From NCBI GenBank assembly GCA_035559535.1, contig DATMBG010000022.1:192568-256567 (forward strand): a stretch of 64,000 bases of DNA, read 5' to 3'. Below the pieces are notes generated by a model. The model was not told the origin of the DNA and searched no databases. It saw only the letters and a program-made list of their open reading frames with translations. The stretch comes from Candidatus Limnocylindrales bacterium. Lineage in GTDB: Bacteria; Moduliflexota; Moduliflexia; Moduliflexales; JAUQPW01. Shown here piece after piece: positions 10,335 to 57,180 of this stretch (position 1 is the first letter of the stretch; each line of letters starts with the position of its first letter). Made by a program: the position numbers and the translations under genes.

Positions 10335-12326
10335 TTAACGCCTGTAATCTATTCTCACCAAACCATACGGAAGCATTTCAAATTTTAAATGGCCTTCTTC
10401 TGTTCCCACCTCCTTTCCGTTCTCTTGATAAAAGGTTTCTGGCTCCTGCATGGCCTGTTCGACATTCTGTTCATCTAGAGGCCGAATCCAGACTCTGGAA
10501 GGCAACCCGGCAACGGTCACCTGTTCCGGGACCGGACTAAGATTCATCACGATGAATCGGGTATGTCCATTTTTTCTCAATCCCAGTCCATTGGCCCGTA
10601 GAATGTCACTGGAACGGGTAGGGATGACAGTACCGCCGATAAACTGACCCACATCGGCCAGGACATGGTAAAGGGGAAATACCGTACCCGGTCGTGAAGG
10701 GAACTTTTCCGGTAAGGGAGAACCCTGCTCCGTCTCCATAACCCCTCGCCAGCCGGTCGTTTCATAGTAGGTGACACTGTATATTCCTTCTTCCAGGAGA
10801 TATTTGAGACTTCCCGTGGTCCAACATGCGCCAAACAAAGATGTTTGCCGAACGTCCACCTGGGGGGGAAGTTCTCCTGGAATGGCTTTTGGCTCGGGAG
10901 GCGAACCGTTGGGTTGAAGTCGGGGACGGAGCGTAACCGGACTGATGGCCAACAGTTTATCTCCGATAATTCGACGGGCATTTTGAACGGTTACCCCTTG
11001 GGTCTCCAGGTTTTCTACCAGTGTTGCATCATCAAAGGCGTGAACCTGGGGATTAATGGAATAGCTTACCAAATCGATAAGGGCCACCGGGGGATGACCG
11101 CGGTTTATCTCCGTAAAATAGGCGTTGGTACCTGCACCCACTTTGGCGGCAGGTGCGTATTCTTTCAAGACAGGACGGGCCAGTTGAATCCACTTTTCGG
11201 TGGTTGAACTCTCCCCAATATGGAAGATCAACCAGGTACAAACCCGCGGTTTAATCTGAAATAGTGCGTCCCTCAAGTCCATAAGTTCCTCCCTGGCTAC
11301 ATCCGACAAAATCAATGCCACTTCCAAGTCCACTCCCAGCTTTTCGGCTTCCTCGCCGGCTCGCTGCAATCGATTCCTATAATCTGATTCAAATAAAGGT
11401 AAATCCACCCGAAGATGGGAAAGGTTGAGTAGCTTCAGGCGGGCGATTTCCTTGGGGGTTAAAGATTGACCATGACTGGCCATACCCAGTCCGATACGCG
11501 GTAAGGGGAATGGATTGGCCGTAACCAGCCCCTCTATTCTCAAAGGTTTTGGCTGAGGAGGGGTGAAGAGGGCCGGGGTATGAAAACGTGCCGGATCTTT
11601 CTGTTCTCGAATTTTATCCTCTTCCCCCTCCTGACCATAGTGAAGGAAAAGAGTAACCGACTGGCTAATTTTCTCCCCGGCTTTGACTTCGACAGGACGT
11701 GGTAGCGCAAGGGGGGTACAATAGGTTTTGAAAGAAGCATCTGTCCAGTTACGATGGTCTTCGGTTTCAAATACCTCTCCTTCAAAGCGAACTTCTGCCC
11801 GAATGCCGGGTCGGACTTCATGGATCATACCCTGTAGATCCATAAAAGGTTGATGAGGTGAAATTGCTTTTGGAAACATGCTGCGTTCTCGGGTGCCATC
11901 TTTTTTCAATAATTCAACCGGTAACCCGGCAACCGACATGGGATGAAGTACACAGAAACCGAGACGGGCCCGCCAGAAATTACGATGGGCGATTCCCTCC
12001 ATCGAGAAGCGAATTGTTCCCTGCCGGTCCCCTGTAATATGTCCCTGCCAGGAAAAGTCGATTTCACCTTGTTTATGATCGGCGTCAAAGGTAATTTCAA
12101 AATGATCTTCCTGGCTATCTACCTTCAGGTTGGAAATAACCGGCACCACGGTACTCCAATCCGGCGGACGCAGCGCCATATAGATGTGCCGAAGAACTTC
12201 CTGTTCACCGAGTCGAATATACCTTAGTGTACCTGCTTCAAATTGAAGCGTGAGTGGACCTGCACGAAGTTCAAGCCGTTGCGCGGGAGGTTCGTTGACC
12301 CCACGTAGAAGAATCCAATTTGACAT
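10335..12326 (-). CDS. hypothetical protein (663 aa) heading the sugar-uptake cluster; possible glycan-processing enzyme
   Basis: Long uninterrupted ORF with no motif I can name. First gene of the co-directional cluster. Confidence 0.5.
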   Translation of the reverse strand: MSNWILLRGVNEPPAQRLELRAGPLTLQFEAGTLRYIRLGEQEVLRHIYMALRPPDWSTVVPVISNLKVDSQEDHFEITFDADHKQGEIDFSWQGHITGDRQGTIRFSMEGIAHRNFWRARLGFCVLHPMSVAGLPVELLKKDGTRERSMFPKAISPHQPFMDLQGMIHEVRPGIRAEVRFEGEVFETEDHRNWTDASFKTYCTPLALPRPVEVKAGEKISQSVTLFLHYGQEGEEDKIREQKDPARFHTPALFTPPQPKPLRIEGLVTANPFPLPRIGLGMASHGQSLTPKEIARLKLLNLSHLRVDLPLFESDYRNRLQRAGEEAEKLGVDLEVALILSDVAREELMDLRDALFQIKPRVCTWLIFHIGESSTTEKWIQLARPVLKEYAPAAKVGAGTNAYFTEINRGHPPVALIDLVSYSINPQVHAFDDATLVENLETQGVTVQNARRIIGDKLLAISPVTLRPRLQPNGSPPEPKAIPGELPPQVDVRQTSLFGACWTTGSLKYLLEEGIYSVTYYETTGWRGVMETEQGSPLPEKFPSRPGTVFPLYHVLADVGQFIGGTVIPTRSSDILRANGLGLRKNGHTRFIVMNLSPVPEQVTVAGLPSRVWIRPLDEQNVEQAMQEPETFYQENGKEVGTEEGHLKFEMLPYGLVRIDYRR

Positions 12327-24315: not shown

Positions 24316-27069
24316 ATGATCCCATGGACCCAATCCGCAAAGGAAGAATTAGATCGTTATTCCGACCAAATTCGGCGTACGGTGGAATCATCGGGAGCCG
24401 ATCCTTCGATATTTATCACAGACATTTATCGGTACGTTGATGAAGCTATTGCTGCTTCTCACCTTCAGGTGGTAACGGAGGAGGATATCCGGCGAATCTT
24501 ATCCCAGATAGGCTTGCCTGGCTCCGATTCCATGGGATGGAAGAGAGATTTTGAACCTGAAATTCCTGTTCAAACAAATCCTTTCCATTCTGGGACAGAT
24601 CCTGGGACAGAAGTACCGAAGAGTCCAGGGATAAAGTCTTTACAAAGGTCGGATTTTAACCGGATTTACAAGAGGCCATCCGGTCTGTTTATTCTTTTGT
24701 TTGGTGTTGTACTTCCTCTGATAACTCTTGGGGTTGAATTAAGCACCCATCTATGTGCCAACGAATTTTTCGATCCGATTCCGACGACCTGGCATATTCT
24801 TTTGGTCGGGTTTGTGCCCCTTGCGAATCTTTTAGTTTGGCTGGCCGTCTGGAAGGGTAAAACCTCCTATCGACGGAAATTGGGATTAATCAATGGAATT
24901 GCACTGGGTGTGGCATTTTTTTACACACTCCCCTTTATTCCTCTCCTTCCCCTGAGTGTTTTTGCAATTATTTATTTTGGTATAGGATTGTTACCCATGG
25001 CGCCTCTTTTCTCTTTCATTTCAGCCGTCCTTTGTCGCCGTTACCTTCGACAGATGACCCTCGAGGCAACGCCCAGGAAGGTCCCAGGTCTTGGATGGGG
25101 GATTCTTTTAGCTCTCGTAGCTTTTGTGGCCGCCGATTTGCCAATTGTTCTCACCCGAATCGGTATACAGATGGCTGCTTCCCCTTCTTCCGAGATCAGC
25201 CTTCGAGGGATTCGATGGCTCCGGGCCATAGGGGATAAAGACCTTCTACTACAGGCCTGTTATCGGCGCCCTGCAAGGATATCGGATTTCTTCAGTTTTA
25301 TGGTTTCCATGGGAAATCTTCCTACCCCCGAAGAAGTCCGCAAGATTTACTACCGTGTTATGGGGAAGCCCTTTAACGCAGTTCCTCCACCAAAACTTGT
25401 TACCTTTGATCGTTGGAGTTTCTGGGACGAGCTTGATTTTGACCGGGATCAGGGTGGGGCTGTGGTGGGAGAACGGATAAAAGGACTTTCCCTGGTCGGC
25501 TCTCGACTGGATGGATCTTTGGATCCTGATGCCGTTTTGGTTTATACCGAATGGATCCTTATTCTCAAGAACAATTCCAATCGGCAACATGAAGCAAGAG
25601 CTCAAATCGCTCTCCCTCCAGGGGGAGTAGTTTCACGCGTAACGCTCTGGATCAACGGAGAGGAGCAAGAAGCCGCCTTTGGATCGCGAGGGAAGGTGCG
25701 GCAGACCTATGAACAGATCGTTCGACAACGGCGAGATCCTGTTCTCGTTACCACCAGCGGCCCTGATCGTGTCTTAGTCCAGTGTTTTCCTGTACCTCCA
25801 GGCGGAGAGATGAAAGTTCGAATTGGGATTACCGCACCACTTTTGTTGGAAACCAGGGACCGGGGGCTTTTTCGTTTACCTTACTTTTTGGAACGTAACT
25901 TTAGTATCTATGAAGAAGGTTCCCATTCTGTCTGGTTTGAATCGAGAAAGCCCATGGAAACCCTCAGCAAAACTCTTAAATTAGAACATTCCGACAACAA
26001 CCTCTATACCATCCGAGGAACCATGTCGGATCCCGATCTGACAACATCCCAGGCTATTATCCATGTGGGTCGGTCTGGAGAGGTCGTGCAGGCCTGGACC
26101 CCAGATCCTGTAAGCAAAAAGGAACAGATCATTCGTCAGATCATCCAAGAGAGGGAACCTCAGTCTCCGGCCCGGGTTATCCTTGTCGTTGATGGCTCTC
26201 AAGGTATGCAAGGGTTTCTTCCAGAAGTTATCGATGCCCTCTCCGGGCTCCCGGAAGGCATCGAATTGGGTTTGATCTTTGCCTCAGATGACGTTCGTCT
26301 CCTGGCAGGGTCGATACAAAAAGTTACAGCCGAATGGTATAGAACTCTTGCCGATCACCTGAAGAAAGAGAATTTTGAAGGAGGCCAGGATAACATCCCG
26401 GCCCTGATCAAGGGTTGGGACCTTGCAACGGAGCATCCAGATGGTATCATCCTGTGGATTCATGGACCCCAACCCATTCTTTTGCAAACAACAGAAGAAA
26501 TTCGGCAGAGATGGGAAAGACGACCTGACTCCCCTCATCTTTATGAGATCCAGGCCGGAGGTGGACCCAACCGTATCGTTGAGCAACTCGATGGGATCCC
26601 AGCCATAAAATCCATTCCACACCTGGGAAGTTTATCCGATGATTTGAAAAGACTGTTCTCCCCATGGCGTGGTGAGTCAAAAGAATGGGTGTTATTCCGT
26701 GAAAGAGTTACCCGAGAAAGCCTGGACGATTCGATCCCGGGTAAAGAGACCTCTGCCCATCTGGCTCGACTTTGGGCGAAGGATGAAATTCTGAAACGTG
26801 TTGTTTTCAAAGGGAGACCTGAATCTTCGAGTCCGAACCTGATAGAGGAAGCTCTTCAGCTTGCAATCAGCTATCAACTGGTAACTCCCCTTAGTGGAGC
26901 GGTTGTTCTGGAAACCCAGCAGCAATACCAACAAATGAATCTTGAGCCGGTCAAACCGGGTACAGTTCCAACCATCCCTGAACCGGAGACCTGGATGCTC
27001 CTGCTGGTGGTTGCTACGGTCCTGATAGGGGTCTTTTACCGATGGAAGATCTTGCCCGTTAGAGAATAG
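24316..27069 (+). CDS. PEP-CTERM-anchored protein with N-terminal polytopic membrane domain, VIT (vault protein inter-alpha-trypsin) domain and VWA domain; XrtN-system-like exosortase target
   Basis: C-terminus IPEPETWMLLLVVATVLIGVFYRWK is PEP followed by a TM helix and basic tail. A VIT-like block lies around AQIALPPGGVVSRVTLWINGEE...VQCFPVPPGGEMKVRIG. A VWA-like block lies around RVILVVDGSQGM. About six TM helices sit in residues ~120-290. Confidence 0.8.
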   Translation: MIPWTQSAKEELDRYSDQIRRTVESSGADPSIFITDIYRYVDEAIAASHLQVVTEEDIRRILSQIGLPGSDSMGWKRDFEPEIPVQTNPFHSGTDPGTEVPKSPGIKSLQRSDFNRIYKRPSGLFILLFGVVLPLITLGVELSTHLCANEFFDPIPTTWHILLVGFVPLANLLVWLAVWKGKTSYRRKLGLINGIALGVAFFYTLPFIPLLPLSVFAIIYFGIGLLPMAPLFSFISAVLCRRYLRQMTLEATPRKVPGLGWGILLALVAFVAADLPIVLTRIGIQMAASPSSEISLRGIRWLRAIGDKDLLLQACYRRPARISDFFSFMVSMGNLPTPEEVRKIYYRVMGKPFNAVPPPKLVTFDRWSFWDELDFDRDQGGAVVGERIKGLSLVGSRLDGSLDPDAVLVYTEWILILKNNSNRQHEARAQIALPPGGVVSRVTLWINGEEQEAAFGSRGKVRQTYEQIVRQRRDPVLVTTSGPDRVLVQCFPVPPGGEMKVRIGITAPLLLETRDRGLFRLPYFLERNFSIYEEGSHSVWFESRKPMETLSKTLKLEHSDNNLYTIRGTMSDPDLTTSQAIIHVGRSGEVVQAWTPDPVSKKEQIIRQIIQEREPQSPARVILVVDGSQGMQGFLPEVIDALSGLPEGIELGLIFASDDVRLLAGSIQKVTAEWYRTLADHLKKENFEGGQDNIPALIKGWDLATEHPDGIILWIHGPQPILLQTTEEIRQRWERRPDSPHLYEIQAGGGPNRIVEQLDGIPAIKSIPHLGSLSDDLKRLFSPWRGESKEWVLFRERVTRESLDDSIPGKETSAHLARLWAKDEILKRVVFKGRPESSSPNLIEEALQLAISYQLVTPLSGAVVLETQQQYQQMNLEPVKPGTVPTIPEPETWMLLLVVATVLIGVFYRWKILPVRE

Positions 27070-27180
27070 TAGAAGGGTGGGGGTGTGGGAGGGTGGGGGT
27101 AGATGTAAATTCTCCCATACTTTTACGCTCCTTTCTACCCTTCCATACTCCCATACTCCCACACCCTCATACTTCCCTCT
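27070..27180. repeat. heptamer-repeat palindromic element, copy A2
   Basis: gggtgggggtgtgggagggtggggg / center agatgtaaatt / ctcccatac...ccatactcccatactcccacaccctcatac. Sits in the 112-nt gap between the PEP-CTERM gene and the exosortase gene. Confidence 0.7.
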
Positions 27181-27181
27181 G

Positions 27182-27991
27182 ATGAACAACCAGAGTTTCC
27201 TTTTTATTCTCCAGTTTCTTGCCTTTTGGCCGGTTTGGAAATGGTATGTTCTCAGGCTGATAGATTCTCCCCAGGAACTATTTGGCTTAATCGCTTTAGG
27301 TACCGCGGGAGGATTTATTTTATGGAGAAGGCCTGATTTAAGTTCCGCCAAATCCCGTCTGATTTTGCCGGCCGTTTTTGTGCTTCTCTATACGGTGACT
27401 TACCCTTTTCTTCCATTCCTGATAAAGGCTGCTATTGCGCTCGTTGCCATAGGTTGTACCCTAAGTTCCTATCGATGGGGGATATCTTTTCATCCTGGAA
27501 TCTGCGGGCTTCTCCTCCTATCCCTCCCCGTTATCCCCTCTCTACAATTCTACCTGGGATATCCACTCCGTGTGTTAACAGGTATCCTAGCGGTTCCTCT
27601 CCTTCAATTGGGAGGTTTTACCGTAGTTCGAGAAGGAACTTCCTTAAATTGGGATGGTCAACTCATCTTAATTGATGCACCTTGTAGTGGGGTTCGGATG
27701 TTATGGTCGGCCCTTTATCTCACTTTTACCTTGACCTGTTTCTACGGATTTAATACAGGAAAAACCTGTCTGGCCGTTCTTCTCTCATTCCTGGGGATTA
27801 TTGCAGGAAATGCGCTCCGTTCGGCTGCCTTATTCTATCCTGAGGCCCATACCCTTGCTCTCCCCTCCTGGACCCACGAAGGGATTGGGATGGTCGTATT
27901 TTTCTTCACAGCCATTTTTATTGTGGGAGGTATTCGGTGGATTCGAAAAAAATTTCCATTGGTCAAGCGGGTGGTCAAGCGGGACGCTTAA
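27182..27991 (+). CDS. exosortase (small EpsH/Xrt family, XrtN-like)
   Basis: Eight TM helices. Conserved LIDAPCSGVRMLW with the catalytic Cys, and a conserved Arg in AGNALRSAAL. Start trimmed to ATG 27182 because the upstream ORF extension is repeat sequence. Confidence 0.85.
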   Translation: MNNQSFLFILQFLAFWPVWKWYVLRLIDSPQELFGLIALGTAGGFILWRRPDLSSAKSRLILPAVFVLLYTVTYPFLPFLIKAAIALVAIGCTLSSYRWGISFHPGICGLLLLSLPVIPSLQFYLGYPLRVLTGILAVPLLQLGGFTVVREGTSLNWDGQLILIDAPCSGVRMLWSALYLTFTLTCFYGFNTGKTCLAVLLSFLGIIAGNALRSAALFYPEAHTLALPSWTHEGIGMVVFFFTAIFIVGGIRWIRKKFPLVKRVVKRDA

Positions 27992-28509
27992 CCTACCTGA
28001 CCCTTCCCATTTATATCATTTCCTGTGGGTTAGCCACCATAGTACCCCTGGTAGTTGCTACTCCTGATTTCAAGCCCAATTTTGTCTCGTTCCCCGGCTG
28101 GCCAAATCAATTTGAAGACCGCCCTTTGATGGAGTTACCTTTATCCAAACGTGAGAGGCGCTTTAACAATGATTTTCCAGGGCGTATCGCAAGGTTCACA
28201 GATGGAACCCGTGAGTTTGTGATCCGATGGGTGATCCAAGAAACGAGAAAACTCCATCCCGGTGCCGATTGTTTCAAAGGAATCGGCTATTTTATTCAAC
28301 CTATCTCCCTCCGAATCGATATCAACGGCTACTCCTGGGGTTGTTTTGAAGCTACACGGGGTGAGGAAAGACTCAGAGTCTGCGAAAGGATCTACGATGA
28401 AGCAGGAAATAGTTGGACTGATGTGTCTGACTGGTATTGGGCAGCTCTTCTAGGAAGAACGCAAGGACCCTGGTGGGTCATCACCGTTGCCGAGAATCTA
28501 CAGGAATAA
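27937..28509 (+). CDS. exosortase-associated EpsI-like protein (N-terminal TM anchor plus periplasmic domain); assignment tentative
   Basis: 190-aa ORF overlapping the exosortase 3' end by 55 nt, with a single N-terminal hydrophobic helix. Position and size match EpsI-type partners. Confidence 0.4.
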   Translation: MDSKKISIGQAGGQAGRLTYLTLPIYIISCGLATIVPLVVATPDFKPNFVSFPGWPNQFEDRPLMELPLSKRERRFNNDFPGRIARFTDGTREFVIRWVIQETRKLHPGADCFKGIGYFIQPISLRIDINGYSWGCFEATRGEERLRVCERIYDEAGNSWTDVSDWYWAALLGRTQGPWWVITVAENLQE

Positions 28510-28660
28510 GGTTAAGAGCCCAACTTTACCATTCAGGTAGTCGCTTTTACAGATTTATATCAGATCAACTTGAAATGGGGTGTAATTCCCACATGCGAGG
28601 AGGGAAAAGGAGCTTTCAAGGACAGATTTTTTCTCCTCTAACCCCTTTCCTGCTGTCAAA

Positions 28661-29557
28661 CTAAAAACGTTGTTCTTCTAAGAGTTGGATGAGTTCATCG
28701 ACAGAAAATGTTTCCCTGGATAAGAAAAGGGCTTTTATGCCAGAGGCTTGAAATTGCTCTAAGCAGTAAGCTTGTTCCCGGCGTTTTTGATCTTCTACCA
28801 GGTTTAACCAGGCTTTAGCATCTACCTTCCCAAACTCTCCACTTTCGATGTCTCGATAGGTCAAAACCCCCACCGAAGAGATGAGACTCTCTGGAATTCT
28901 TTCTTCGAGGAAAATAGGAAAGATAGGATTATGGGCTCCAATCCGTTGGACTACTGGAATCCAATCCTCATCGGTTTCAAAATCCGAGATCAGGATGATA
29001 AGCTGTTTTTTATTGGGCAGGCCTGCGCCTTTACGGGCTTCAAAGAACTGAAGGACCGGGAGTAGAGAGGTTTTTTCGCCCACAGCCGGTTGGAAGTCCC
29101 AGATGGTTTGCAGGAGGTTTACAAGGGTTTTTTCAGAGCGAAAGGGAGAGAGAACCGTTCGAAGGGTAGAATCAAACCCGATAAAACCCATAAGATCCTG
29201 TTGGCGAATAATCGAACGGCCCAGTATGGCCAAAATATCTAAGAGGAGGCGATGCTTAGATTTTTCTTCTGAGAATCCGATGAACATGGAAGCACTGAGA
29301 TCTGCAACCATCCAGACTTCGAGAACCCGTTCCTCCCGAAGTTTCCGTACGAGAAACCCCCCTTCTAAGCGTTCACTGGCTTTCCAGTCGATATGGCTGG
29401 TCTCTTCGCCCACCGTGTACTGTTGGAAAAAATCAAAATCTTCTCCGCGTCCACGGAAGGTACTCCGATGCATGCCCTGCATGAGGGTCTGAACCCGGTC
29501 CCGTATCCGTAAATCCACCCTTCGGGTTATTTGAGCATACCATTCACCAAAATCCAT
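28661..29557 (-). CDS. DUF58 domain protein (VWA-like, MoxR/BatA-system type)
   Basis: HRSTFRGRGEDFDFFQQYTVGEETSHIDWKASER matches the DUF58 core. 298 aa. Confidence 0.8.
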   Translation of the reverse strand: MDFGEWYAQITRRVDLRIRDRVQTLMQGMHRSTFRGRGEDFDFFQQYTVGEETSHIDWKASERLEGGFLVRKLREERVLEVWMVADLSASMFIGFSEEKSKHRLLLDILAILGRSIIRQQDLMGFIGFDSTLRTVLSPFRSEKTLVNLLQTIWDFQPAVGEKTSLLPVLQFFEARKGAGLPNKKQLIILISDFETDEDWIPVVQRIGAHNPIFPIFLEERIPESLISSVGVLTYRDIESGEFGKVDAKAWLNLVEDQKRREQAYCLEQFQASGIKALFLSRETFSVDELIQLLEEQRF

Positions 29558-42841: not shown

Positions 42842-44251
42842 ATGAAACCCTGGGTCACTTTTTTGCTAGAACTGCTTGCCCTGGCGGGAATGTTGAGCTG
42901 TAGTACGTCTGAAAAACAAAGTTATGTGGCGCCAAAGGAAACTCCAACAACCCCTACGGAAAGGGATATATTACCCAAAAGTAGCGTGAATTGGATTGGA
43001 CATTGGTTGGGTCAGGATAAACGTGAAACCCTTGTAAGGGAAGTAGCTCGGGAATTCGAGTTTTTGAATCCGGAGATAGAGGTTAATCTCAAATTCCCTC
43101 AAGAGATATTCGGAAATCGTAGCAAGGCTTTAATCGCCAAACAGTATGCCGACAGGATTCGTAAAGGTAACCTGGATTGGGATGTTATCTGGATGGATCC
43201 CGGAATTTATCAATTGGTGGCCCAGGATCTGGGGGATGCCGAGTGGGGAAAAAAGTATCTGGTTAACTTTGAGGAGGTGGATGGCTTTAAGGAAACGCAG
43301 AAGCCTTTTATTCTGGAAGACCCTATCTATAAGAATCAAACCGGTGGTATACTCATCGGACCTTTTATAGAAGGATTCTATTGGGCCCTTTTTTATAATA
43401 CGGAAGTTGCCAAAAGAATAGGAATAGAAATTAAGCAAGAAGATATGACTTTCGACGATCTGTTAGGATATGTTAAAAAGGTTTACGAATACAGGCAGAA
43501 GAACCACGTGGATATCGCGGCATTTTATGAGGCCAGGGATGCATTTTCCTTGGGGGTTCTGTTTCAAAGCCTGGTCACCTCAGAGCTTAGGGATTTTCGT
43601 AAAGTAAAAGAAGAGGTAACCTCGGAAGAAAAATGTGCAGCGTTACTGAAGACTTTTCGAGCCTTTGAAGAGTTAGGGAAATATGATCCCTTAATCCCTT
43701 CCCATGCCAGTAATCTCTGGTTTGAAACGAAGCATCTTGCCTTAGAGGATAAGGTACTTTTCCAGATCGGGGGAACCTGGATGTACAATACCTGGCGTCA
43801 GATATCCGAAGACAAAATGAAGAAGATGATTCCTGCTGAGTTACCCGTTTTTCAGGAAGTGAATTATTATCCCGGTGGCTATATCCCAACCTGGGCGGTG
43901 TTTAAAGATGCACCCCATCGGGATAACGGCATTAAGTTACTGTTATTCTGGAGTACACCCAAGGTAGCCGAAAAGTGGGTACGGTATACGAAAAGTCCAA
44001 CGGGTTTACGAGGTCATTTCTCCACTCCGGAAATTGGAGCCGATGTGTTTGAAAAATTTCAACATAGAATCACAACCAAATACGGTAAAAATGTTTTGGC
44101 AGTTTCCAATGCCGGGTATTTATTAGGAAAGGAAAACAGGCTCCTTTTGAAGGACATATCCGAAAAAATTATAGAACTCCTGGAAGGCCGAACAACGGCA
44201 GAGACGGCATATCACGAAGTCATCGTAAAAGCCGGATTGGAGAAAAATTAG
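42842..44251 (+). CDS. extracellular solute-binding-like lipoprotein (lipobox LSC), likely sensory partner of the downstream two-component system
   Basis: Signal peptide with LAGMLSCS lipobox. SBP family 1-like composition. Immediately upstream of the kinase. Confidence 0.65.
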   Translation: MKPWVTFLLELLALAGMLSCSTSEKQSYVAPKETPTTPTERDILPKSSVNWIGHWLGQDKRETLVREVAREFEFLNPEIEVNLKFPQEIFGNRSKALIAKQYADRIRKGNLDWDVIWMDPGIYQLVAQDLGDAEWGKKYLVNFEEVDGFKETQKPFILEDPIYKNQTGGILIGPFIEGFYWALFYNTEVAKRIGIEIKQEDMTFDDLLGYVKKVYEYRQKNHVDIAAFYEARDAFSLGVLFQSLVTSELRDFRKVKEEVTSEEKCAALLKTFRAFEELGKYDPLIPSHASNLWFETKHLALEDKVLFQIGGTWMYNTWRQISEDKMKKMIPAELPVFQEVNYYPGGYIPTWAVFKDAPHRDNGIKLLLFWSTPKVAEKWVRYTKSPTGLRGHFSTPEIGADVFEKFQHRITTKYGKNVLAVSNAGYLLGKENRLLLKDISEKIIELLEGRTTAETAYHEVIVKAGLEKN

Positions 44252-50321: not shown

Positions 50322-50339
50322 AAATTTTCAAGGGTTCGA

Positions 50340-50460
50340 TCAAACCCCCAAGGATCCCTTTTGAGACCCGGAGACCCGGAGAAATTTCTCCGCGTCCCCA
50401 TGTCTCCGCGTCTCCGTGTCCCCATGTCTCCGCGTCTCAAAAGGGGTCCTTGGGTCTTCC
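50340..50460. repeat. tandem direct repeats of a ~16-nt unit TCTCCGCGTCYCCRTG (about 3 copies), preceded by an inverted GAGACCCGGAGAAATTTCTCCGCG palindrome
   Basis: Read directly: ccggagacccggagaaatttctccgcgtccccatgtctccgcgtctccgtgtccccatgtctccgcgtctc. Located in a divergent promoter region. Confidence 0.6.
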
Positions 50461-50685
50461 TGCCTTTATAGCTGAAAGATTTAAGTTTTATCAGGTTTAA
50501 AATCTGATATAATAAAAAAATTGGTCCCGAAGGGCTTATTTTTCAACCTCTAAAATTTTCTTCTTGACTTCTCTTATCTTCTCCTATTTATTCTTTTCCA
50601 GGCTGTTTTATCAGGAACTCTTTTTCCTCGGGGATTCTTCTAAATCAATCACCTTAACCCTTGTTATCCGTCGTAGAGGTGCCTT

Positions 50686-52905
50686 ATGAATCGAAGGCGG
50701 CGGTTAGGAGAGGTTTTAGTCGAAGCTTGTCTGATAAGCCCGGAACAACTGGATCGGGTCCTGGCCATCCAACAGCATGAACAAAAGCCTTTGGGAAGAA
50801 TTCTCATGGAACAGGGATGGGTCGAAGAAAAAGATATCTATAAGGCCCTCTCAGAAATCTGGGGGATCGAATACGTGGATATTTCCCAGGTCATGATCAG
50901 TCCCCAGGTTCTGCAGATTGTACCGGAAGAAATAGCTAAAAGATATCTGGTCTTCCCTCTTTTTCTCCAGGATAAACTCCTTTACCTGGCCATGGAAAAT
51001 CCTCTCCAATTGGAGCCTATTCAGCTTATCGAATTTAAGACCCGGTTACGGGTTAAACCCTTACTGGCAAGCCGAAGCAAAATCCAGGAAGCCTTGAATC
51101 GCCACTTCAATATGGATAACTATGTAGAAAAAATCCTGGCCCAAGTTCAATCTAAAGAGAAAATTCAGGTGATCCAAAACCCCGAAGAAGAAGAGGATCT
51201 TAGTAAACTTGAAAAGTCCACCGAAGGAAGTCAGATCCTGCAACTGGTCAATCTGATTCTGGTCAATGCCATCAAAAAGCGGACCTCCGATATTCATATT
51301 GAACCGGCCGAGAGCCTGGTGGGAATTCGATACCGTATCGATGGACTCCTTTCAGATCCTATCCGGCTTCCCAAACCATTTCAACAACCTCTTGTCTCCC
51401 GAATCAAAGTTATGGCGAATCTGGATATTGCCGAGAAGCGAAGACCCCAAGATGGTAAAATTACCATCCACTTCTCGGGTCGGCCCATCGATCTGCGGGT
51501 CTCTACCTTACCGACCAATTTTGGGGAAAAGGTGGTTATACGCATCCTGGATAAGAAAGCAGCCCTTCATAACCTTGCCAGCCTGGGTATGTCAGAGACT
51601 CAACTGACCATTTTTCAGCAGGCCTTAAGTCAACCCCAAGGACTCATTCTGGTGACCGGTCCGACCGGTAGTGGAAAAACAACGACCCTTTATGCCGGCC
51701 TCAATGCGCTCCGGGATAAAACTAAGAATATCGTTACCATCGAAGACCCTATTGAATATCAACTGGAGGGTATCAATCAGGTACAGGTTAATAGAAAGGC
51801 GGGGGTTACCTTTGCCAGTGTTCTTCGATCCGTTTTACGTCAGGACCCCAATGTTATTCTGGTAGGAGAGATTCGAGATTCAGAAACTGCCGAGATTGCC
51901 ATCCAGGCTTCCCAAACAGGTCACCTGGTTCTGAGTACTTTACATACCAACGATGCCGTAGCGACGGTAACCCGGTTGCTCAATCTGGGAATAGCTCCAG
52001 ATCAAGTTGCTTCGAATCTCATTCTGGCCCTGGCTCAAAGACTTATTCGCCGGATCTGCCCGGCATGTAAAAAAAGTTATGTTCCTTCTTTTGAAGAGTT
52101 AAAAAAGTTTGGTCTTGGCAAGCCATCGGCAACGTCCTTTTCTACCCTGTATCGAGGAACCGGATGCGAGCAGTGTAGAAATATAGGCTATTATGGGCAG
52201 GTCGGTATTTTCGAGATGCTGGTTCCGGGAAATGATCTAAAACTTGCCATTTCAAATAAAACTTCGGAAACAATTCTAAAAAAAGTAGCTATAGAACAGG
52301 GGATGGCAACCCTCTTGCAGGATGGATTGAGTAAAGTCCGACAGGGAATCACCACCCTGGACGAAATAGCCCGGGTCTGCTATGTCCAGGAAGGCTTAAC
52401 CGGGGAATCCCCCGGACTTAGAGAACTTTGCCGTACCTGCCAAAAGGAGTTGGATCCGAACTGGAAGTTGTGTCCTTATTGCGGGACTCCTAAACTTCCG
52501 GAACCCCCCGAAAGTTCCCAAAGGGTTTATAAGATTCTGGTTGCCGATGATGATGACCGCATTGGCGAAACCCTTGTGGCGATTCTGGAAGATCGGGGGT
52601 ATCAGATCATACGAGCTTCCAACGGAGTAGAAACCCTGGATAAGGTTCAAAAAGAAAATCCGGATCTTGTGCTTCTAGATATTGGGATGCCCCTGAAGAC
52701 GGGGTTTGAAGTTTGCGAGGAACTCCGTGCTTCGGTAGATACAATGTTTATTCCCATCATCATGTTGACGGCACAGACTTCCATTTCCGAGAAATTAAAA
52801 GGGCTCAGTCTGGGGGCCGATGATTATATCACAAAGCCATTTAACGGGGAAGAGTTAGTTGAAAGGATCAGAGCCGTTTTACGGCGGTCTTATCATACCC
52901 TTTAA
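50686..52905 (+). CDS. GspE/PilB-family secretion ATPase with N-terminal T2SSE_N/MshEN-like domain and C-terminal response-regulator receiver (REC) domain fusion
   Basis: Walker A GPTGSGKTTT. Asp box, Walker B and His box (LVLSTLHTND). Tetracysteine CPAC...CEQC plus an extra CRTC...CPYC zinc ribbon. C-terminal ILVADDDD...DLVLLDIGMP...KP is a canonical REC domain. Confidence 0.85.
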   Translation: MNRRRRLGEVLVEACLISPEQLDRVLAIQQHEQKPLGRILMEQGWVEEKDIYKALSEIWGIEYVDISQVMISPQVLQIVPEEIAKRYLVFPLFLQDKLLYLAMENPLQLEPIQLIEFKTRLRVKPLLASRSKIQEALNRHFNMDNYVEKILAQVQSKEKIQVIQNPEEEEDLSKLEKSTEGSQILQLVNLILVNAIKKRTSDIHIEPAESLVGIRYRIDGLLSDPIRLPKPFQQPLVSRIKVMANLDIAEKRRPQDGKITIHFSGRPIDLRVSTLPTNFGEKVVIRILDKKAALHNLASLGMSETQLTIFQQALSQPQGLILVTGPTGSGKTTTLYAGLNALRDKTKNIVTIEDPIEYQLEGINQVQVNRKAGVTFASVLRSVLRQDPNVILVGEIRDSETAEIAIQASQTGHLVLSTLHTNDAVATVTRLLNLGIAPDQVASNLILALAQRLIRRICPACKKSYVPSFEELKKFGLGKPSATSFSTLYRGTGCEQCRNIGYYGQVGIFEMLVPGNDLKLAISNKTSETILKKVAIEQGMATLLQDGLSKVRQGITTLDEIARVCYVQEGLTGESPGLRELCRTCQKELDPNWKLCPYCGTPKLPEPPESSQRVYKILVADDDDRIGETLVAILEDRGYQIIRASNGVETLDKVQKENPDLVLLDIGMPLKTGFEVCEELRASVDTMFIPIIMLTAQTSISEKLKGLSLGADDYITKPFNGEELVERIRAVLRRSYHTL

Positions 52906-53059
52906 AGGAAGGGATGAAAATTAAAATGCCTCTACAGATTTCTTGGATGGGTAGCTCATTCAGGCAGTAAATTAAGGAACAAAGGGATCTTTCAGAAACT
53001 TCCAGAAGAAGAAGGAACAAGTAGTACTTTGTTTACTTAGTTTTGTTTAACGTTTAAGT

Positions 53060-53201
53060 GGCCCTCACCCCCGGCCCCTCTCCCACGCTGGGGAGAGGGG
53101 AGCTGGGGAGTGAAAGCAACCCTATGAGGTCAAAATTAAGTAAACAGTAGTAGGATAACGCTTTAAGATTCTACAGTAGTAGGATAACGCTTTAAGATTC
53201 T
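53060..53201. repeat. GC-rich palindromic repeat element, family B copy 3, plus an adjacent 28-nt tandem duplication (cagtagtaggataacgctttaagattct x2)
   Basis: cccctctcccacgctggggagagggg hairpin followed by the conserved module ggggagtgaaagcaaccctatgaggtcaaaattaagtaaacagt. The direct duplication lies at 53146-53201. Confidence 0.65.
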
Positions 53202-53510
53202 TTTTCCTATCCACCCTGATGCGCAGGGACGATGGGGGTAGTTGGTAGGGCATCCTGAAGGCCGGTACTAAATACGTACCTACCAGCCATCTTTCCTTGT
53301 ATGTACCCGCGGGCTGATCATCGAGGGGTTTATACCTGCAGCCCGCATTTTACAATGTTGGTTCGTGAGAGTAGGCTCCACCTATCTACTCTCACGGCCT
53401 GGAACAGGCCCTGGAGGAGAGAATAAGGTAAGTTTCCCCTCTGAAAGGGAAACCTGACAAATCCCTTTTAGGACGAGGTCTTAGCGACCTCTTCCTCCTG
53501 GGTAGGGGAT

Positions 53511-53996
53511 TTACATTTGATATTTACTGAAATCTTCAGGCTTTAAATTCTCCAACCACTCTTTCAGCTTTTCGGTATCTTCCGACTCCTGATTCATATC
53601 GATGCTTTTGGCCTTTTCGATGACTTCTCGAGCAACGTAGATGGGCGCACCGACCCTGAGCGCCAGGGCAATGGCATCACTGGGTCTGGAGTCAATCACG
53701 ATTTTATTTCCGTTGGTCGTTAACTGAATGGTTGCGTAGAAGGTATTATTTTTAAGGTCATTTACCACGATTTTATTAACCGTTGCATTCAGACCTTCGA
53801 TGATGTCCTTCATCAGATCGTGGGTCATGGGTCTTGGAGTGCTGATTTTTTCCAATTCCAGTGCGATAGCATTCGCTTCAAATAACCCAACCCAAATCGG
53901 CAGAGCCTTTTTATCTTCTAAATCCCTTAGAATAACAATGGGCATATTGGTTAAGGGATCCAATGTAAGTCCTTTGACTTTCATTTCTAAATACAT
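53511..53996 (-). CDS. bifunctional nuclease family protein (DUF151/BFN domain)
   Basis: [19 protein letters not shown]...[11 protein letters not shown] core motifs. Start may be the internal ATG at 53984. Confidence 0.75.
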
Positions 53997-55911: not shown

Positions 55912-57180
55912 ATGAGTCAGGAGGGCCTAAAAAGAAGCCTGGAAGAATGGATGACGACCAAAAGAGGGTCGCCTACCTCTTCTTCAGAGCAATCCAATAT
56001 CGGGAGATTACTTCAGAAAGTTAATCTCTCGGACATTGAAATGTCAGATTCACCTTTCGCTTTAAGGGGGAAAACCGATTGGCCCACGCTCAAAAATTCC
56101 CTCAAGGATCAAGGGCAAAAATACCCTATTATCTTGAAAAGAGAAGAGGGCAGATACCGAATCGTTGCCGGATTCAGACGGCTAAAAGCCTTGAATGAGC
56201 TGGGCTATAGCTCCGTGATGGCCGTGGTATATGATAAGCTGACAGACGAAGAAATGGAGCTATTTTACCTCATGGATGTTCTTCTCTATCAAGAAACCGA
56301 CCTTTTGCGTCTATCCGAGTTACTGTCTGAAAAAGACGAAATTCTGGCCAAAAGTCTGGGTATTCCCCAGGCACTGTATGATTCCTTTGTAAAAATCGCC
56401 CTGGCCTCTGAAGAGATCAAAGAAGCTTTATCTCGTCAAGATATCAGCCTGAAACAGCTCCTGGAAATTCTTAAATCCGATCATCCCCAAGAATTGTTGG
56501 AAGAACTCTTAGCCTCTCAAGTTACTTCCCGAGAAATGAACCTCCTGAATCAGCTTATTTCTTTGAGAAAAGTCATGCCGGTCTCTGGAGAGGAAATTCA
56601 AAAGTGGATTGATATCGAAAGCCTGGCCATCCGGGTCTATAAAGATTTGAAACATCTATCTGAGAAAATTAAGATTCTAAAGGAGGTTTATCCCCAAATT
56701 CCCTTAGATATCCGGAAATATCTGGTAACTGAACTTAAAGAGCTGGAAGAGACCGGAATCTTTAATATCATCCATCAGCATCCGGGCGCAGAACATCTCT
56801 ATGAAGAGGTGACCGGGGAAGATTATGAGGAGATTAAAATCCTCTCGGACGAGATTTTTAATACCCAGATCCTTAATTCGGAAATCCCGGTTGTGGTTAA
56901 TCTGAATCTGGCAGGGTATCCTCCCTGTGAAGAACTTCAGCAGGCCCTGGGGATGTTACAGGCTAAATATCACGATAAACTTAGGTTCTATGCTGTTAAC
57001 ATCATGGAATCAGACTTAGGAGGTCGATTGCCCCATTTGGTTAAAATCGGAAAAGATTTTATGGTCAAAAACCTCCCTCGCATTATGATCTTTTGGAAGG
57101 GTAAGAAAGTAGCAGAGTCTAACAAGATTGATGATCTGGAAGAGGTCTTCAGGCTGGTTCGATCGGTTATAAAGGCGTGA
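55912..57180 (+). CDS. ParB/Srx-like N-terminal domain protein fused to a C-terminal thioredoxin-fold-like domain
   Basis: ParB N-domain motif YRIVAGFRRLKA. C-terminal ~110 aa resembles a Trx fold (GYPPCEEL at the CxxC-equivalent position, LPRIMIFWKGKKV). Confidence 0.55.
   Translation: MSQEGLKRSLEEWMTTKRGSPTSSSEQSNIGRLLQKVNLSDIEMSDSPFALRGKTDWPTLKNSLKDQGQKYPIILKREEGRYRIVAGFRRLKALNELGYSSVMAVVYDKLTDEEMELFYLMDVLLYQETDLLRLSELLSEKDEILAKSLGIPQALYDSFVKIALASEEIKEALSRQDISLKQLLEILKSDHPQELLEELLASQVTSREMNLLNQLISLRKVMPVSGEEIQKWIDIESLAIRVYKDLKHLSEKIKILKEVYPQIPLDIRKYLVTELKELEETGIFNIIHQHPGAEHLYEEVTGEDYEEIKILSDEIFNTQILNSEIPVVVNLNLAGYPPCEELQQALGMLQAKYHDKLRFYAVNIMESDLGGRLPHLVKIGKDFMVKNLPRIMIFWKGKKVAESNKIDDLEEVFRLVRSVIKA

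What the first reader, a model, noticed from the sequence alone, without database searches (positions are those of the whole stretch)
50686..52905. Orphan GspE/PilB-type ATPase fused to a C-terminal receiver domain
- The 739-aa protein has a complete T2SSE_N/MshEN-like N-domain and a full GspE ATPase core (Walker A/B, Asp and His boxes, tetracysteine).
- It has a second CxxC...CxxC zinc ribbon.
- Its last ~120 aa are a canonical phospho-receiver domain (DDDD...D...KP).
- There are no pilus, pseudopilin, PilC/GspF or secretin genes nearby.
- The flanks are a repeat-rich divergent promoter with tandem 16-nt direct repeats and a repeat element.
- A secretion/pilus motor ATPase directly gated by phosphorylation, and also carrying an MshEN-like N-domain, is an uncommon architecture.
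- It suggests two-component control of a type IV filament or T2SS-like machine encoded elsewhere.
Basis: partly seen in the sequence, partly recalled or inferred. Interest (0 to 1): 0.6.

Follow-up and report, generated by a model that had tools for sequence, protein, structure and literature searches.

The report
Pilus-motor ATPase with built-in phospho-receiver
This is a real, intact gene for a PilB-type pilus/secretion motor ATPase with a phosphorylation-receiver domain fused to its tail; it belongs to a sizeable but unstudied protein family, so a sensor kinase probably switches the motor directly, though no pilus genes lie nearby to show which machine it drives.

Summary
ORF 50686-52905 (+) encodes 739 aa: an MshEN N-domain, a complete T2SSE ATPase (all boxes, tetracysteine), a CxxC...CxxC zinc ribbon in the linker, and a C-terminal receiver with every phospho-chemistry residue. 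No pilus or T2SS gene occurs in the 64-kb window.

The architecture is not a one-off. 88 of the top 150 50%-identity cluster representatives share the C-terminal REC, in KSB3/Moduliflexota, Omnitrophota and other MAGs. ATPase and REC catalytic residues are invariant or nearly so across the family.

In relatives the recurrent neighbours are histidine kinases and REC proteins, with occasional prepilin-like genes; one relative is split into PilB plus a separate REC protein.

The second c-di-GMP half-site of the MshEN domain is degenerate here, and this is specific to the REC-fused clade.

Best reading: a PilB/GspE-clade motor paralogue switched by His-Asp phosphorylation through a tethered OmpR-type receiver, serving a type IV filament machine encoded elsewhere. 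The target machine and the direction of control are inferred.

"Uncommon" is overstated. An N-terminal-REC version was catalogued in 2016.

Verdict: new variant of a known kind, moderate interest.

The parts
50686..52905 (+). Complete gene, 739 codons plus stop: MshEN - T2SSE ATPase - zinc ribbon - REC
   Evidence: Exact protein is HWP47067.1 in a public MAG. 96%, 89% and 73% identical orthologues exist.
50551..50592 (+). Putative own promoter: conserved block TAAAATTTTCnTnTTGACTTC, with -35-like TTGACT (50564-50569) and -10-like TTTATT (50587-50592, 17-nt spacer)
   Evidence: It is the only upstream block conserved in the 73%-identity relative L007. The consensus scan did not pick it up, so its function is inferred from conservation alone.
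50676..50681 (+). Shine-Dalgarno-like GAGGTG, 4 nt before the ATG
   Evidence: Sequence read. The AGAGG core is conserved in relatives.
50686..51141 (+). MshEN (GSPII) N-terminal domain, aa 1-152
   Evidence: Pfam MshEN. Aligns with the N-domains of Geobacter and Myxococcus PilB, PilF GSPII-A/B/C and MshE 5HTL. pLDDT 72-92.
50701..50772 (+). c-di-GMP motif I, aa 6-29: RLGEVLVEACLISPEQLDRVLAIQ (Gly10 of the motif replaced by Cys15)
   Evidence: Compared with the motif in PMC5013675. Family conservation.
50788..50859 (+). c-di-GMP motif II, aa 35-58: PLGRILMEQGWVEEKDIYKALSEI (starts with Pro; the terminal Gln is replaced by Ile58)
   Evidence: The 5-residue spacer is kept. The terminal Gln is kept in 27% of C-REC proteins against 75% of non-fused ones.
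51226..52374 (+). T2SSE N2 domain plus ATPase core, aa 181-563, with Walker A (51658-51681), Asp box, Walker B and His box
   Evidence: Pfam E 6e-136. Boxes invariant in 81/81 family members. Foldseek TM 0.89-0.93 to Geobacter PilB and Thermus PilF.
52057..52176 (+). Tetracysteine zinc motif of the ATPase C-domain (C458, C461, C494, C497)
   Evidence: Invariant in 81/81. Zinc is essential in EpsE (PMC5061722).
52429..52482 (+). Linker zinc ribbon CRTC...CPYC (aa 582-599), flanked by low-confidence linkers 569-578 and 605-611
   Evidence: Pfam Zn_Ribbon_1 and DZR below cutoff here, but above cutoff in relatives (DZR 31.7-34.7 bits). All four Cys conserved in 61/81 members. Short beta strands, block pLDDT about 75.
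52531..52896 (+). Receiver (REC) domain, aa 616-737; phospho-acceptor Asp665 at 52678-52680; the protein ends right after helix alpha5
   Evidence: Pfam 100 bits. Best matches are OmpR/PhoB-family receivers. D622 and D665 in 80/80, T695 as T/S in 78, K717 in 78/78. pLDDT about 90.

Best explanation
The gene encodes a hexameric motor ATPase of the PilB/GspE clade, closest overall to type IVa pilus extension ATPases. It has acquired its own OmpR/PhoB-type receiver domain, tethered to the C-terminus through a flexible linker that carries a small zinc ribbon. A HisKA-type histidine kinase phosphorylates Asp665; that kinase is encoded elsewhere in this genome but is adjacent in some relatives. The phosphorylated receiver changes its alpha4-beta5-alpha5 surface and thereby changes how the six subunits associate or cycle, switching ATP-driven filament assembly on or off. 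The most likely route is receiver-receiver pairing between neighbouring subunits, or release of an inhibitory contact. The N-terminal MshEN domain is kept as the docking and regulatory module, but its second c-di-GMP half-site has decayed. In this clade phosphorylation has therefore probably supplemented or replaced c-di-GMP as the main input. The motor would dock onto a PilC/PilM-type platform encoded outside this window. Shown: the architecture, intactness and conservation of every catalytic and phospho-site residue, membership of a large family, recurrent kinase neighbours, and clade-specific motif decay. Inferred: that phosphorylation acts on hexamer activity, its direction, and the identity of the filament machine.
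For: 1. All ATPase boxes and the tetracysteine are invariant in 81 family members, and the REC quintet is essentially invariant, so both halves are under purifying selection.
2. The family is large: 88 of the top 150 50%-identity representatives carry the C-terminal REC. In an NJ tree of the core, 82/83 fused sequences fall on one side of a single split.
3. Kinase and REC genes are the recurrent neighbours: a PAS-PAS-HK 3 nt downstream in L012, a hybrid HK plus a REC protein directly upstream in L008, and a dense phosphorelay cluster in L009.
4. L015 is a split form, PilB followed by a separate REC protein.
5. Prepilin-type N_methyl genes flank the gene in L008 and L011.
6. Full-length similarity, N-domain included, is to Geobacter and Myxococcus PilB and Thermus PilF.
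7. The REC is OmpR/PhoB-like, with GADDYITKPF and a conserved alpha5 Arg.
8. The AF2 model shows the REC tethered by low-confidence linkers.
9. Precedents: phosphorylated PixG binds PilB1 and PilG~P polarises PilB (PMC11181946). An oligomerising protein fused to the C-terminus of EpsE/GspE gives stable, more active hexamers that still work in vivo (PMC5061722).
10. KSB3 relatives glide and have pilB, pilC and pilT scattered in the genome (PMC4312070).
Against: No pilus or secretion component lies within 64 kb, and none is conserved next to the gene in most relatives, so the target machine is unknown. The protein scores below NCBI's equivalog cutoffs for both PilB (623 against 676) and GspE (581 against 630). 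The ATPase core is equally similar (48%) to PilB and to Vibrio GspE. No kinase is conserved next to this orthologue group; the HK/sigma54-RR pair 3 kb upstream is absent in the 73% relative L007. The structure model gives no confident REC-ATPase contact (pTM 0.49). Bootstrap support for a single fused clade is only moderate (60%), and the sampling was biased towards the query. No experiment exists for any member.
Confidence: 0.5

Rival explanations
1. It is a type II secretion (GspE-type) ATPase under two-component control. It would power a pseudopilus that exports proteins rather than a surface pilus.
For: The core is 48% identical to V. cholerae EpsE/GspE, the same as to PilB. The GspE model scores 581 bits. 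N_methyl neighbours could be pseudopilins. Some T2SS ATPases carry MshEN domains (PMC5013675).
Against: The full-length match, including the first 60 residues, is to PilB, PilF and MshE, whereas solved GspE aligns only from residue 133 or later. The PilB model outscores GspE (623 against 581). No gspF, gspL, gspM or gspD lies in any of the loci examined.
Confidence: 0.15
2. It is an orphan signalling ATPase that no longer drives any filament. The ring would act as a phosphorylation- and nucleotide-dependent switch that regulates another process, for example exopolysaccharide or cell-surface behaviour, as proposed for the signalling role of M. xanthus PilB.
For: Across the family the gene is persistently unlinked from machinery genes. 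It is embedded in signalling clusters (L009). Some genomes have several paralogues (two in Ca. Moduliflexus). Some members carry long coiled-coil tails. PilB acts as a signalling protein in EPS regulation (PMC5544727, listed).
Against: Every catalytic residue needed for a working motor, plus the zinc motif, is invariant. Prepilin-like genes flank it in some lineages. A pure switch would be expected to tolerate more drift in the motor elements.
Confidence: 0.2
3. The receiver does not regulate the ATPase allosterically. It would serve as a phosphate sink, or as a localisation tag that brings the motor to a kinase or chemosensory array.
For: The REC is joined by long flexible linkers with no predicted contact. 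Sink-type receivers exist in pilus control, such as PixH and PilH (PMC11181946). Coiled-coil-tailed variants suggest scaffolding.
Against: The Thr/Tyr switch residues and the alpha4-beta5-alpha5 signature (D712, D713, Y714, R727) are conserved, not just the phospho-acceptor pocket. A sink has no need to be fused 1:1 to a motor subunit.
Confidence: 0.12
4. The fusion is an assembly or gene-calling artefact that joins a PilB gene to a neighbouring response-regulator gene.
For: A split arrangement does exist in one relative (L015).
Against: The frame is continuous with no stop. The identical protein is found in independent assemblies from NCBI, JGI, ENA and Logan. At least 88 diverged clusters share the architecture.
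Confidence: 0.01

Closest known systems
Type IVa pilus extension ATPase PilB (Geobacter 5TSG/5TSH/5ZFR/6OLJ, Myxococcus 3JC8) and Thermus PilF
   Same: The MshEN/GSPII N-domain, N2 domain, ATPase core with all boxes and the tetracysteine align over residues 5-566. Similarity is 486 bits, 48% core identity and TM 0.89-0.93.
   Different: It has about 175 extra C-terminal residues (zinc ribbon plus REC). It scores below the NCBIfam PilB equivalog cutoff. It is not in a pilBTC or pilMNOPQ cluster.
MshE / MshEN c-di-GMP receptor domain (5HTL; Wang et al. 2016, PMC5013675)
   Same: Two tandem 24-residue motifs separated by a 5-residue spacer at the extreme N-terminus. Motif I is almost intact (R-L-G ... 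Q).
   Different: Motif I has Cys for Gly10. Motif II begins with Pro and ends with Ile instead of Gln, and that Gln hydrogen-bonds the phosphate and ribose. Loss of this Gln is typical of the C-REC clade (27% Q against 75%).
REC-MshEN-T2SSE proteins (e.g. Geobacter metallireducens Gmet_3473; PMC5013675, Suppl. Table 4)
   Same: The same three domain types in one polypeptide: a PilB-like ATPase fused to a receiver. Uncharacterised experimentally, as far as the searched library shows.
   Different: The receiver is N-terminal there, and C-terminal behind a zinc-ribbon linker here. Among the top 150 representatives, 88 have a C-terminal REC and 5 an N-terminal one.
Stand-alone response regulators that act on PilB: PixG/PixE/LsiR (Synechocystis) and PilG/PilH (Pseudomonas)
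   Same: A phosphorylatable receiver controls the extension motor. Phospho-PixG binds PilB1, and PilG~P polarises PilB (PMC11181946; bioRxiv 10.1101/2021.06.11.447907).
   Different: Those regulators are separate, diffusible CheY-like or PATAN-REC proteins fed by CheA-type kinases. Here the receiver is OmpR/PhoB-like and covalently attached at one per subunit.
NtrC-type enhancer-binding proteins (REC-gated AAA+ rings); resemblance recalled from general knowledge, not tested here
   Same: Phosphorylation of a receiver controls assembly or activity of a hexameric ATPase ring. This is a resemblance in how it works only.
   Different: A different ATPase superfamily (AAA+ sigma54 activator against the PilT-class secretion ATPase), with the receiver N-terminal and a DNA-binding output.
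Engineered EpsE/GspE-Hcp1 and PilB-Hcp1 C-terminal fusions (4KSR/4KSS; PMC5061722)
   Same: An oligomerising domain attached to the C-terminus by a short linker is compatible with function in vivo and stabilises a more active hexamer.
   Different: These are artificial and constitutive. In the natural protein the appended domain's association would depend on phosphorylation.

Membership tests
T2SSE / PilT-class secretion ATPase superfamily (PF00437) | Walker A, Asp box, Walker B and His box present and intact; Pfam score above the gathering cutoff | tested here: met
   453 bits against a cutoff of 24.9. Boxes read, and invariant in 81/81 relatives.
PilB/GspE extension-type subfamily | C-terminal tetracysteine zinc motif CxxC-x(n)-CxxC | tested here: met
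   C458, C461, C494 and C497, invariant in 81/81.
Type IV-A pilus assembly ATPase PilB (TIGR02538 equivalog) | Whole-protein score at or above NCBI's curated cutoff | tested here: not met
   623.3 bits against a cutoff of 675.65, although the alignment covers 2-562 of 564 model positions.
Type IV-A pilus assembly ATPase PilB | Encoded with, or demonstrably serving, pilC/pilT/pilMNOPQ and pilin genes | tested here: not met
   None found in the 64-kb window.
Type II secretion ATPase GspE (TIGR02533 equivalog) | Whole-protein score at or above the curated cutoff, and a gsp operon context | tested here: not met
   580.7 bits against a cutoff of 630.25. No gsp genes in the window or in related loci.
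MshEN c-di-GMP-binding domain | Domain fold and sequence family (MshEN_N four-helix bundle plus T2SSE_N1) | tested here: met
   Pfam MshEN 74.8 bits. Aligns with 5HTL, PilF GSPII domains and PilB N-domains. Helices predicted with pLDDT 72-89.
MshEN c-di-GMP-binding domain | [quoted passage not shown] The relaxed form is [RKPN]hGxxhhxx[GAS]hhxxxxhxxxhxx[QNKRYWST]. | tested here: not met
   The spacer is 5 residues. Motif I fails only at position 10 (Cys, not G/A/S). Motif II fails at the last position (Ile58). Actual binding is not testable here; PilF data show that some deviations are tolerated.
Two-component receiver domain (REC, PF00072) | Pfam score above cutoff, plus the acidic pocket Asp pair, phospho-acceptor Asp, Thr/Ser, aromatic switch residue and Lys | tested here: met
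   100 bits against a cutoff of 30.2. D621/D622, D665, T695, Y714 and K717 are present and conserved family-wide.
Two-component receiver domain (REC) | Phosphorylated by a cognate histidine kinase | not testable with these tools
   No kinase is conserved next to this orthologue group. Kinases are adjacent in L008, L009 and L012.
OmpR/PhoB-family response regulator | Receiver followed by a winged-helix DNA-binding domain | tested here: not met
   The receiver matches only the first 115-124 positions of the RpaB, PhoB, YycF and OmpR models. The protein ends 2 residues after helix alpha5.
REC-MshEN-T2SSE architecture (Wang et al. 2016) | Receiver N-terminal to the MshEN domain | tested here: not met
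   The receiver is at residues 616-737, after the ATPase. The published table lists only the N-terminal order.

The most novel reading that the evidence does not exclude
The C-terminal-REC PilB clade is a distinct class of pilus motor in which His-Asp phosphorylation acts directly on the hexamer, having largely replaced c-di-GMP sensing by the MshEN domain. In the signal-rich, gliding Moduliflexota-like filaments it would be the direct output device linking sensory kinases to type IV filament extension. That would make it a natural covalent version of the PilG/PixG-PilB interaction, and could explain how these organisms steer with an apparently incomplete pilus gene set.
Probability: 0.25. Interest if true: 0.65.

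Novelty: new variant of a known kind. Interest (0 to 1): 0.45.

Why it matters
How sensory systems control type IV pilus motors is an active question. In the model systems the link is a diffusible response regulator (PilG, PixG) whose contact with PilB is hard to pin down. A natural, conserved, one-per-subunit fusion of a receiver to the motor gives a simple biochemical handle: one purified protein, with phosphorylation mimics and ATPase and oligomer read-outs. It also acts as a 'Rosetta stone' supporting direct receiver-motor coupling. The clade-specific decay of the c-di-GMP site suggests that regulatory inputs on these motors can be exchanged during evolution. The family is concentrated in uncultured lineages (KSB3/Moduliflexota, Omnitrophota) whose motility mechanisms are unknown. 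If instead it is just one more regulated PilB paralogue, the finding is a useful annotation refinement, since these proteins are currently labelled plain 'PilB', 'GspE' or 'TadA'.

Tried and rejected
1. Sigma54 promoter upstream, to test a link to the NtrC-type regulator 3 kb away. No match in 50322-50685, and window-wide matches are at chance level. The HK/sigma54-RR pair is also not syntenic in the 73% relative.

2. Known RNA families in the flanks. Nothing at gathering thresholds. In 52880-53540 there is only sub-threshold hairpin noise.

3. PilX-like minor pilin as a conserved partner. The protein downstream in KSB3 (L004/L005, 30% identical to each other) and a 494-aa Omnitrophota protein give only E of about 0.1 to PilX_N. 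Its homologues number 10 clusters, none annotated PilX_N, and none is in the window. Left as inconclusive.

4. Long C-terminal extensions (1172-1528 aa forms) as a second fusion clue. They have no Pfam domain, are Ala/Glu/Arg-rich and coiled-coil-like, and are unrelated to the partners or the window.

5. Reference-genome scan for a census and for this genome's pilus genes.

6. Using the AF2 monomer to see where the REC docks. The linkers are low-confidence and pTM is 0.49, so no conclusion.

7. Separating PilB from GspE by core structure or sequence. Both are 48% identical, so this cannot be resolved.

8. Literature search for a described MshEN-T2SSE-REC protein. None found; only the N-terminal-REC order appears in a supplementary table.
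Full report
**Observation**

The ORF at 50686-52905 (+) is real and intact: an ATG start, 739 codons, and a GAGGTG Shine-Dalgarno 4 nt upstream.

Pfam finds four domains:
- MshEN at 59-142.
- T2SSE at 181-563 (E 6e-136).
- Response_reg at 617-729 (100 bits; cutoff 30.2).
- A zinc ribbon at 582-602, just under its cutoff.

I annotated all ORFs of at least 150 aa in the window. They encode central metabolism, transporters, an exosortase/VIT cluster, two kinase/regulator pairs, MiaB, PcrA and similar functions. None is a PilC/GspF, PilM-Q, secretin, PilT or prepilin gene. The gene lies between an oppositely oriented IlvD-like dehydratase gene and an oppositely oriented nuclease gene, so it is monocistronic.

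**Origin**

The exact protein is HWP47067.1 from a MAG labelled 'Candidatus Limnocylindrales'. That label is doubtful. For both the target and the housekeeping MiaB, the nearest named relatives after the close orthologues are KSB3/Moduliflexota, at 50-54% for the target and 56-60% for MiaB. The parallel divergence suggests vertical inheritance. Orthologues at 96%, 89% and 73% identity keep the downstream gene order (nuclease, MiaB, ParB-like, PcrA) but not the upstream one.

**A family, not a singleton**

A word-indexed search returned more than 100 clusters with the same architecture.

An exhaustive profile search of 1.84 billion representatives found about 89,000 PilB/GspE-like proteins at E<=1e-30. 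I classified the top 150 with my own REC and core HMMs:
- 88 carry a C-terminal REC.
- Of those, 46 have the linker zinc ribbon, 42 lack it, and 7 have long extra tails.
- 5 carry an N-terminal REC.

In an 81-sequence alignment:
- The ATPase boxes and the tetracysteine are invariant.
- The phospho-acceptor Asp and the pocket Asp are present in 80/80 members.
- Thr/Ser is present in 78.
- Lys is present in 78/78.
- The zinc-ribbon cysteines are present in 61/81.

The OmpR/PhoB-type signature G-x-D-D-Y-x-x-K-P and an alpha5 Arg are also conserved. The receiver's best matches are PhoP, YycF, RpaB and PhoB receivers. The protein stops right after alpha5, so there is no DNA-binding domain.

A neighbour-joining tree of 374 core columns puts 82 of 83 fused proteins on one side of one split, with five non-fused ones. 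The exception is a Gemmatimonadales-labelled protein. Bootstrap support is moderate, with 60% of replicates keeping at least 80 fused and at most 6 non-fused together. My sampling favoured similarity to the query, so a single origin is likely but not proven.

**What the ATPase resembles**

The best solved relatives are full-length Geobacter and Myxococcus PilB and Thermus PilF, aligned from residue 5 to 566. GspE aligns only from about residue 133.

The core itself is equally close to PilB and to Vibrio GspE, at 48% identity. The protein also scores below NCBI's equivalog cutoffs for both. I therefore file it in the PilB/GspE clade. It leans towards PilB because of the N-terminal region, but I do not file it as a member of either equivalog family.

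**The c-di-GMP question**

The N-terminus carries the two 24-residue MshEN motifs with the canonical 5-residue spacer (PMC5013675).
- Motif I (aa 6-29) deviates only by Cys for Gly at position 10.
- Motif II (aa 35-58) starts with Pro and ends with Ile instead of Gln.

PilF work shows that Leu or Pro at the first position is compatible with binding. The terminal Gln, however, hydrogen-bonds the phosphate and ribose (PMC11731258).

Across 205 proteins, the motif-II Gln is kept in 75% of non-fused ATPases but in only 27% of C-REC ones, where 48% have L/V/I. The motif-II leading Arg/Lys falls from 62% to 27%. The decay is therefore clade-specific, which suggests weakened or altered c-di-GMP control where a receiver is present. 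Binding itself cannot be decided computationally.

**Genomic contexts in relatives**

Among 12 fused loci examined besides the window's own orthologues, none has a complete pilus cluster. The recurrent theme is two-component signalling:
- L008: a hybrid kinase and a REC protein directly upstream.
- L009: a dense kinase/receiver cluster.
- L012: a PAS-PAS histidine kinase 3 nt downstream.
- L006: a hybrid kinase with Hpt 3 kb away.

In a pooled scan of 48 neighbours from seven further loci, four were histidine kinases, two had N_methyl and one was a T2SSF. The T2SSF belonged to L017, an ordinary non-fused HK-PilB-PilT-PilC cluster.

Other contexts:
- Clear prepilin-type N_methyl genes flank the gene in L008 and L011.
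- L015 is a split version, with PilB followed by a separate REC protein.
- Ca. Vecturithrix has a 2xMshEN protein and a second MshEN-T2SSE ATPase immediately upstream.
- KSB3 filaments glide in sugar gradients, are extremely rich in response regulators, and have pilB, pilC, pilG, pilT and pilV but an 'incomplete' pilus set (PMC4312070).

**Structure**

AlphaFold2 with a 22-sequence alignment gave mean pLDDT 80.8 and pTM 0.49. The individual domains are confident: MshEN, N2, the core, a small beta zinc ribbon, and the REC at about 90. The linkers at 153-180, 569-578 and 605-611 have low confidence. The receiver therefore looks tethered rather than docked, and nothing can be said about its position on the ring.

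**Mechanism proposed**

*Shown:* an intact motor and an intact, conserved receiver in one chain, with kinases as recurrent neighbours.

*Inferred:* phosphorylation of Asp665 by a HisKA-type kinase changes the alpha4-beta5-alpha5 face of an OmpR-type receiver. This alters contacts between neighbouring C-termini, or releases an inhibitory contact, and so modulates hexamer stability or cycling and hence filament assembly.

Two independent precedents make this plausible:
- Phosphorylated stand-alone regulators act on PilB. PixG~P binds PilB1, and PilG~P polarises PilB (PMC11181946).
- Attaching an oligomerising domain to the C-terminus of EpsE/GspE (and PilB) yields stable, more active hexamers that still function in vivo (PMC5061722; PDB 4KSR/4KSS among the hits).

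The sign of regulation and the identity of the machine remain unknown.

**Rivals**

- A T2SS-type ATPase. It cannot be excluded on the basis of the core.
- A signalling-only orphan ATPase. This fits the persistent lack of linkage to machinery, but not the invariance of all motor residues.
- A receiver acting as a phosphate sink or localisation tag.
- An assembly artefact. This is excluded by independent assemblies and by 88 diverged clusters.

**Flanks**

The upstream intergenic region contains a 108-nt palindrome (50347-50454; 36-nt arms, 86% complementary). It is built from 8-nt units with a 24-nt super-period, not 16-nt repeats. The unit occurs nowhere else in the window, and the element is expanded in close relatives.

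Only one upstream block is conserved out to the 73% relative: TAAAATTTTCnTnTTGACTTC, with a -10-like hexamer 17 nt downstream. It is probably the gene's own promoter. No sigma54 site is present.

Downstream there is a perfect 29-nt tandem duplication (53144-53201) and a G-rich hairpin bracketed by 16-nt inverted repeats. No Rfam family matches.

**Novelty and verdict**

The idea of a receiver fused to a PilB-like ATPase was catalogued in 2016, but only in the N-terminal order (REC-MshEN-T2SSE, PMC5013675 Suppl. Table 4). I found no paper describing or testing the C-terminal-REC/zinc-ribbon form. Databases label its members simply PilB, GspE or TadA.

I rate it a new variant of a known kind. 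It is a sound and moderately interesting lead for direct phospho-control of a pilus motor, but it is not a categorically new system, and its target machine is unresolved.

Noticed in passing
window 50347-50454: A 108-nt palindromic element in the ilvD-like/target intergenic region, with 36-nt arms (86% complementary) made of 8-nt units (GAGACCCG / TCTCCGCG) and a 24-nt super-period. The unit is unique to this site in the window. The element is longer and rearranged in the 96%-identity relatives, so it is a fast-evolving insertion/expansion hotspot.
   Followed up: partly
window 53030-53201: A perfect 29-nt tandem duplication (53144-53201, ACAGTAGTAGGATAACGCTTTAAGATTCT x2), next to a G-rich hairpin (about 53052-53123) bracketed by 16-nt inverted repeats (53030-53045 / 53131-53146). 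It looks MITE-like. No Rfam family matches.
   Followed up: partly
window 53210-53500: About 300 nt of non-coding sequence between the target and the nuclease gene, with several stem-loops (e.g. a terminator-like hairpin at 53430-53455 on the minus strand). Not identified, and not compared across relatives.
   Followed up: no
whole window; The NCBI label of the source MAG ('Candidatus Limnocylindrales', Chloroflexota) looks wrong. MiaB and the target both have KSB3/Moduliflexota (Ca. Vecturithrix, 'candidate division KSB3') as nearest named relatives. The window also encodes a sigma54-dependent regulator and an exosortase.
   Followed up: partly
proteins P0148, P0160, P0163, P0153, P0223: Some family members are 1172-1528 aa. 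They have the complete MshEN-T2SSE-Zn-REC unit followed by 340-760 residues of Ala/Glu/Arg-rich, coiled-coil-like sequence with no Pfam domain. The REC-plus-coiled-coil layout recalls Myxococcus FrzS, a pilus polarity factor, but this resemblance is from memory and was not tested.
   Followed up: partly
L004 7022-12352 (Ca. Vecturithrix granuli DF820469.1): Three MshEN-bearing genes sit in tandem: a 337-aa protein with two MshEN domains and a DUF4388/PATAN-like N-terminus, a 496-aa MshEN-T2SSE ATPase, and the 783-aa MshEN-T2SSE-REC orthologue. They are followed by a 436-aa membrane-anchored beta-solenoid protein, annotated CcmA/bactofilin-like, with a weak PilX_N match (E 0.15).
   Followed up: partly
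L015 6573-9289 (Omnitrophota MAG JAHISK010000130.1): A split arrangement: a 556-aa MshEN-T2SSE gene followed 186 nt later by a separate 286-aa REC protein. This is the unfused counterpart of the architecture.
   Followed up: partly
window 55912-57180: A 422-aa protein combining a ParB N-terminal domain (aa 58-119) with a C-terminal thioredoxin-like region (aa 311-408, weak). It is conserved next to PcrA in relatives. An unusual combination, not examined.
   Followed up: no
window 24316-29557: A cluster of a 917-aa VIT-domain protein, an exosortase (EpsH family), an overlapping 190-aa ORF and a DUF58 protein. This suggests a PEP-CTERM/exosortase protein-sorting system.
   Followed up: no
window 10335-12326 and 42842-44251: A 662-aa ORF with no Pfam match, and a 469-aa weak SBP_bac_1-like protein directly upstream of the HAMP-PAS kinase / sigma54 regulator pair. 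The latter may be the ligand-binding partner of that two-component system.
   Followed up: no
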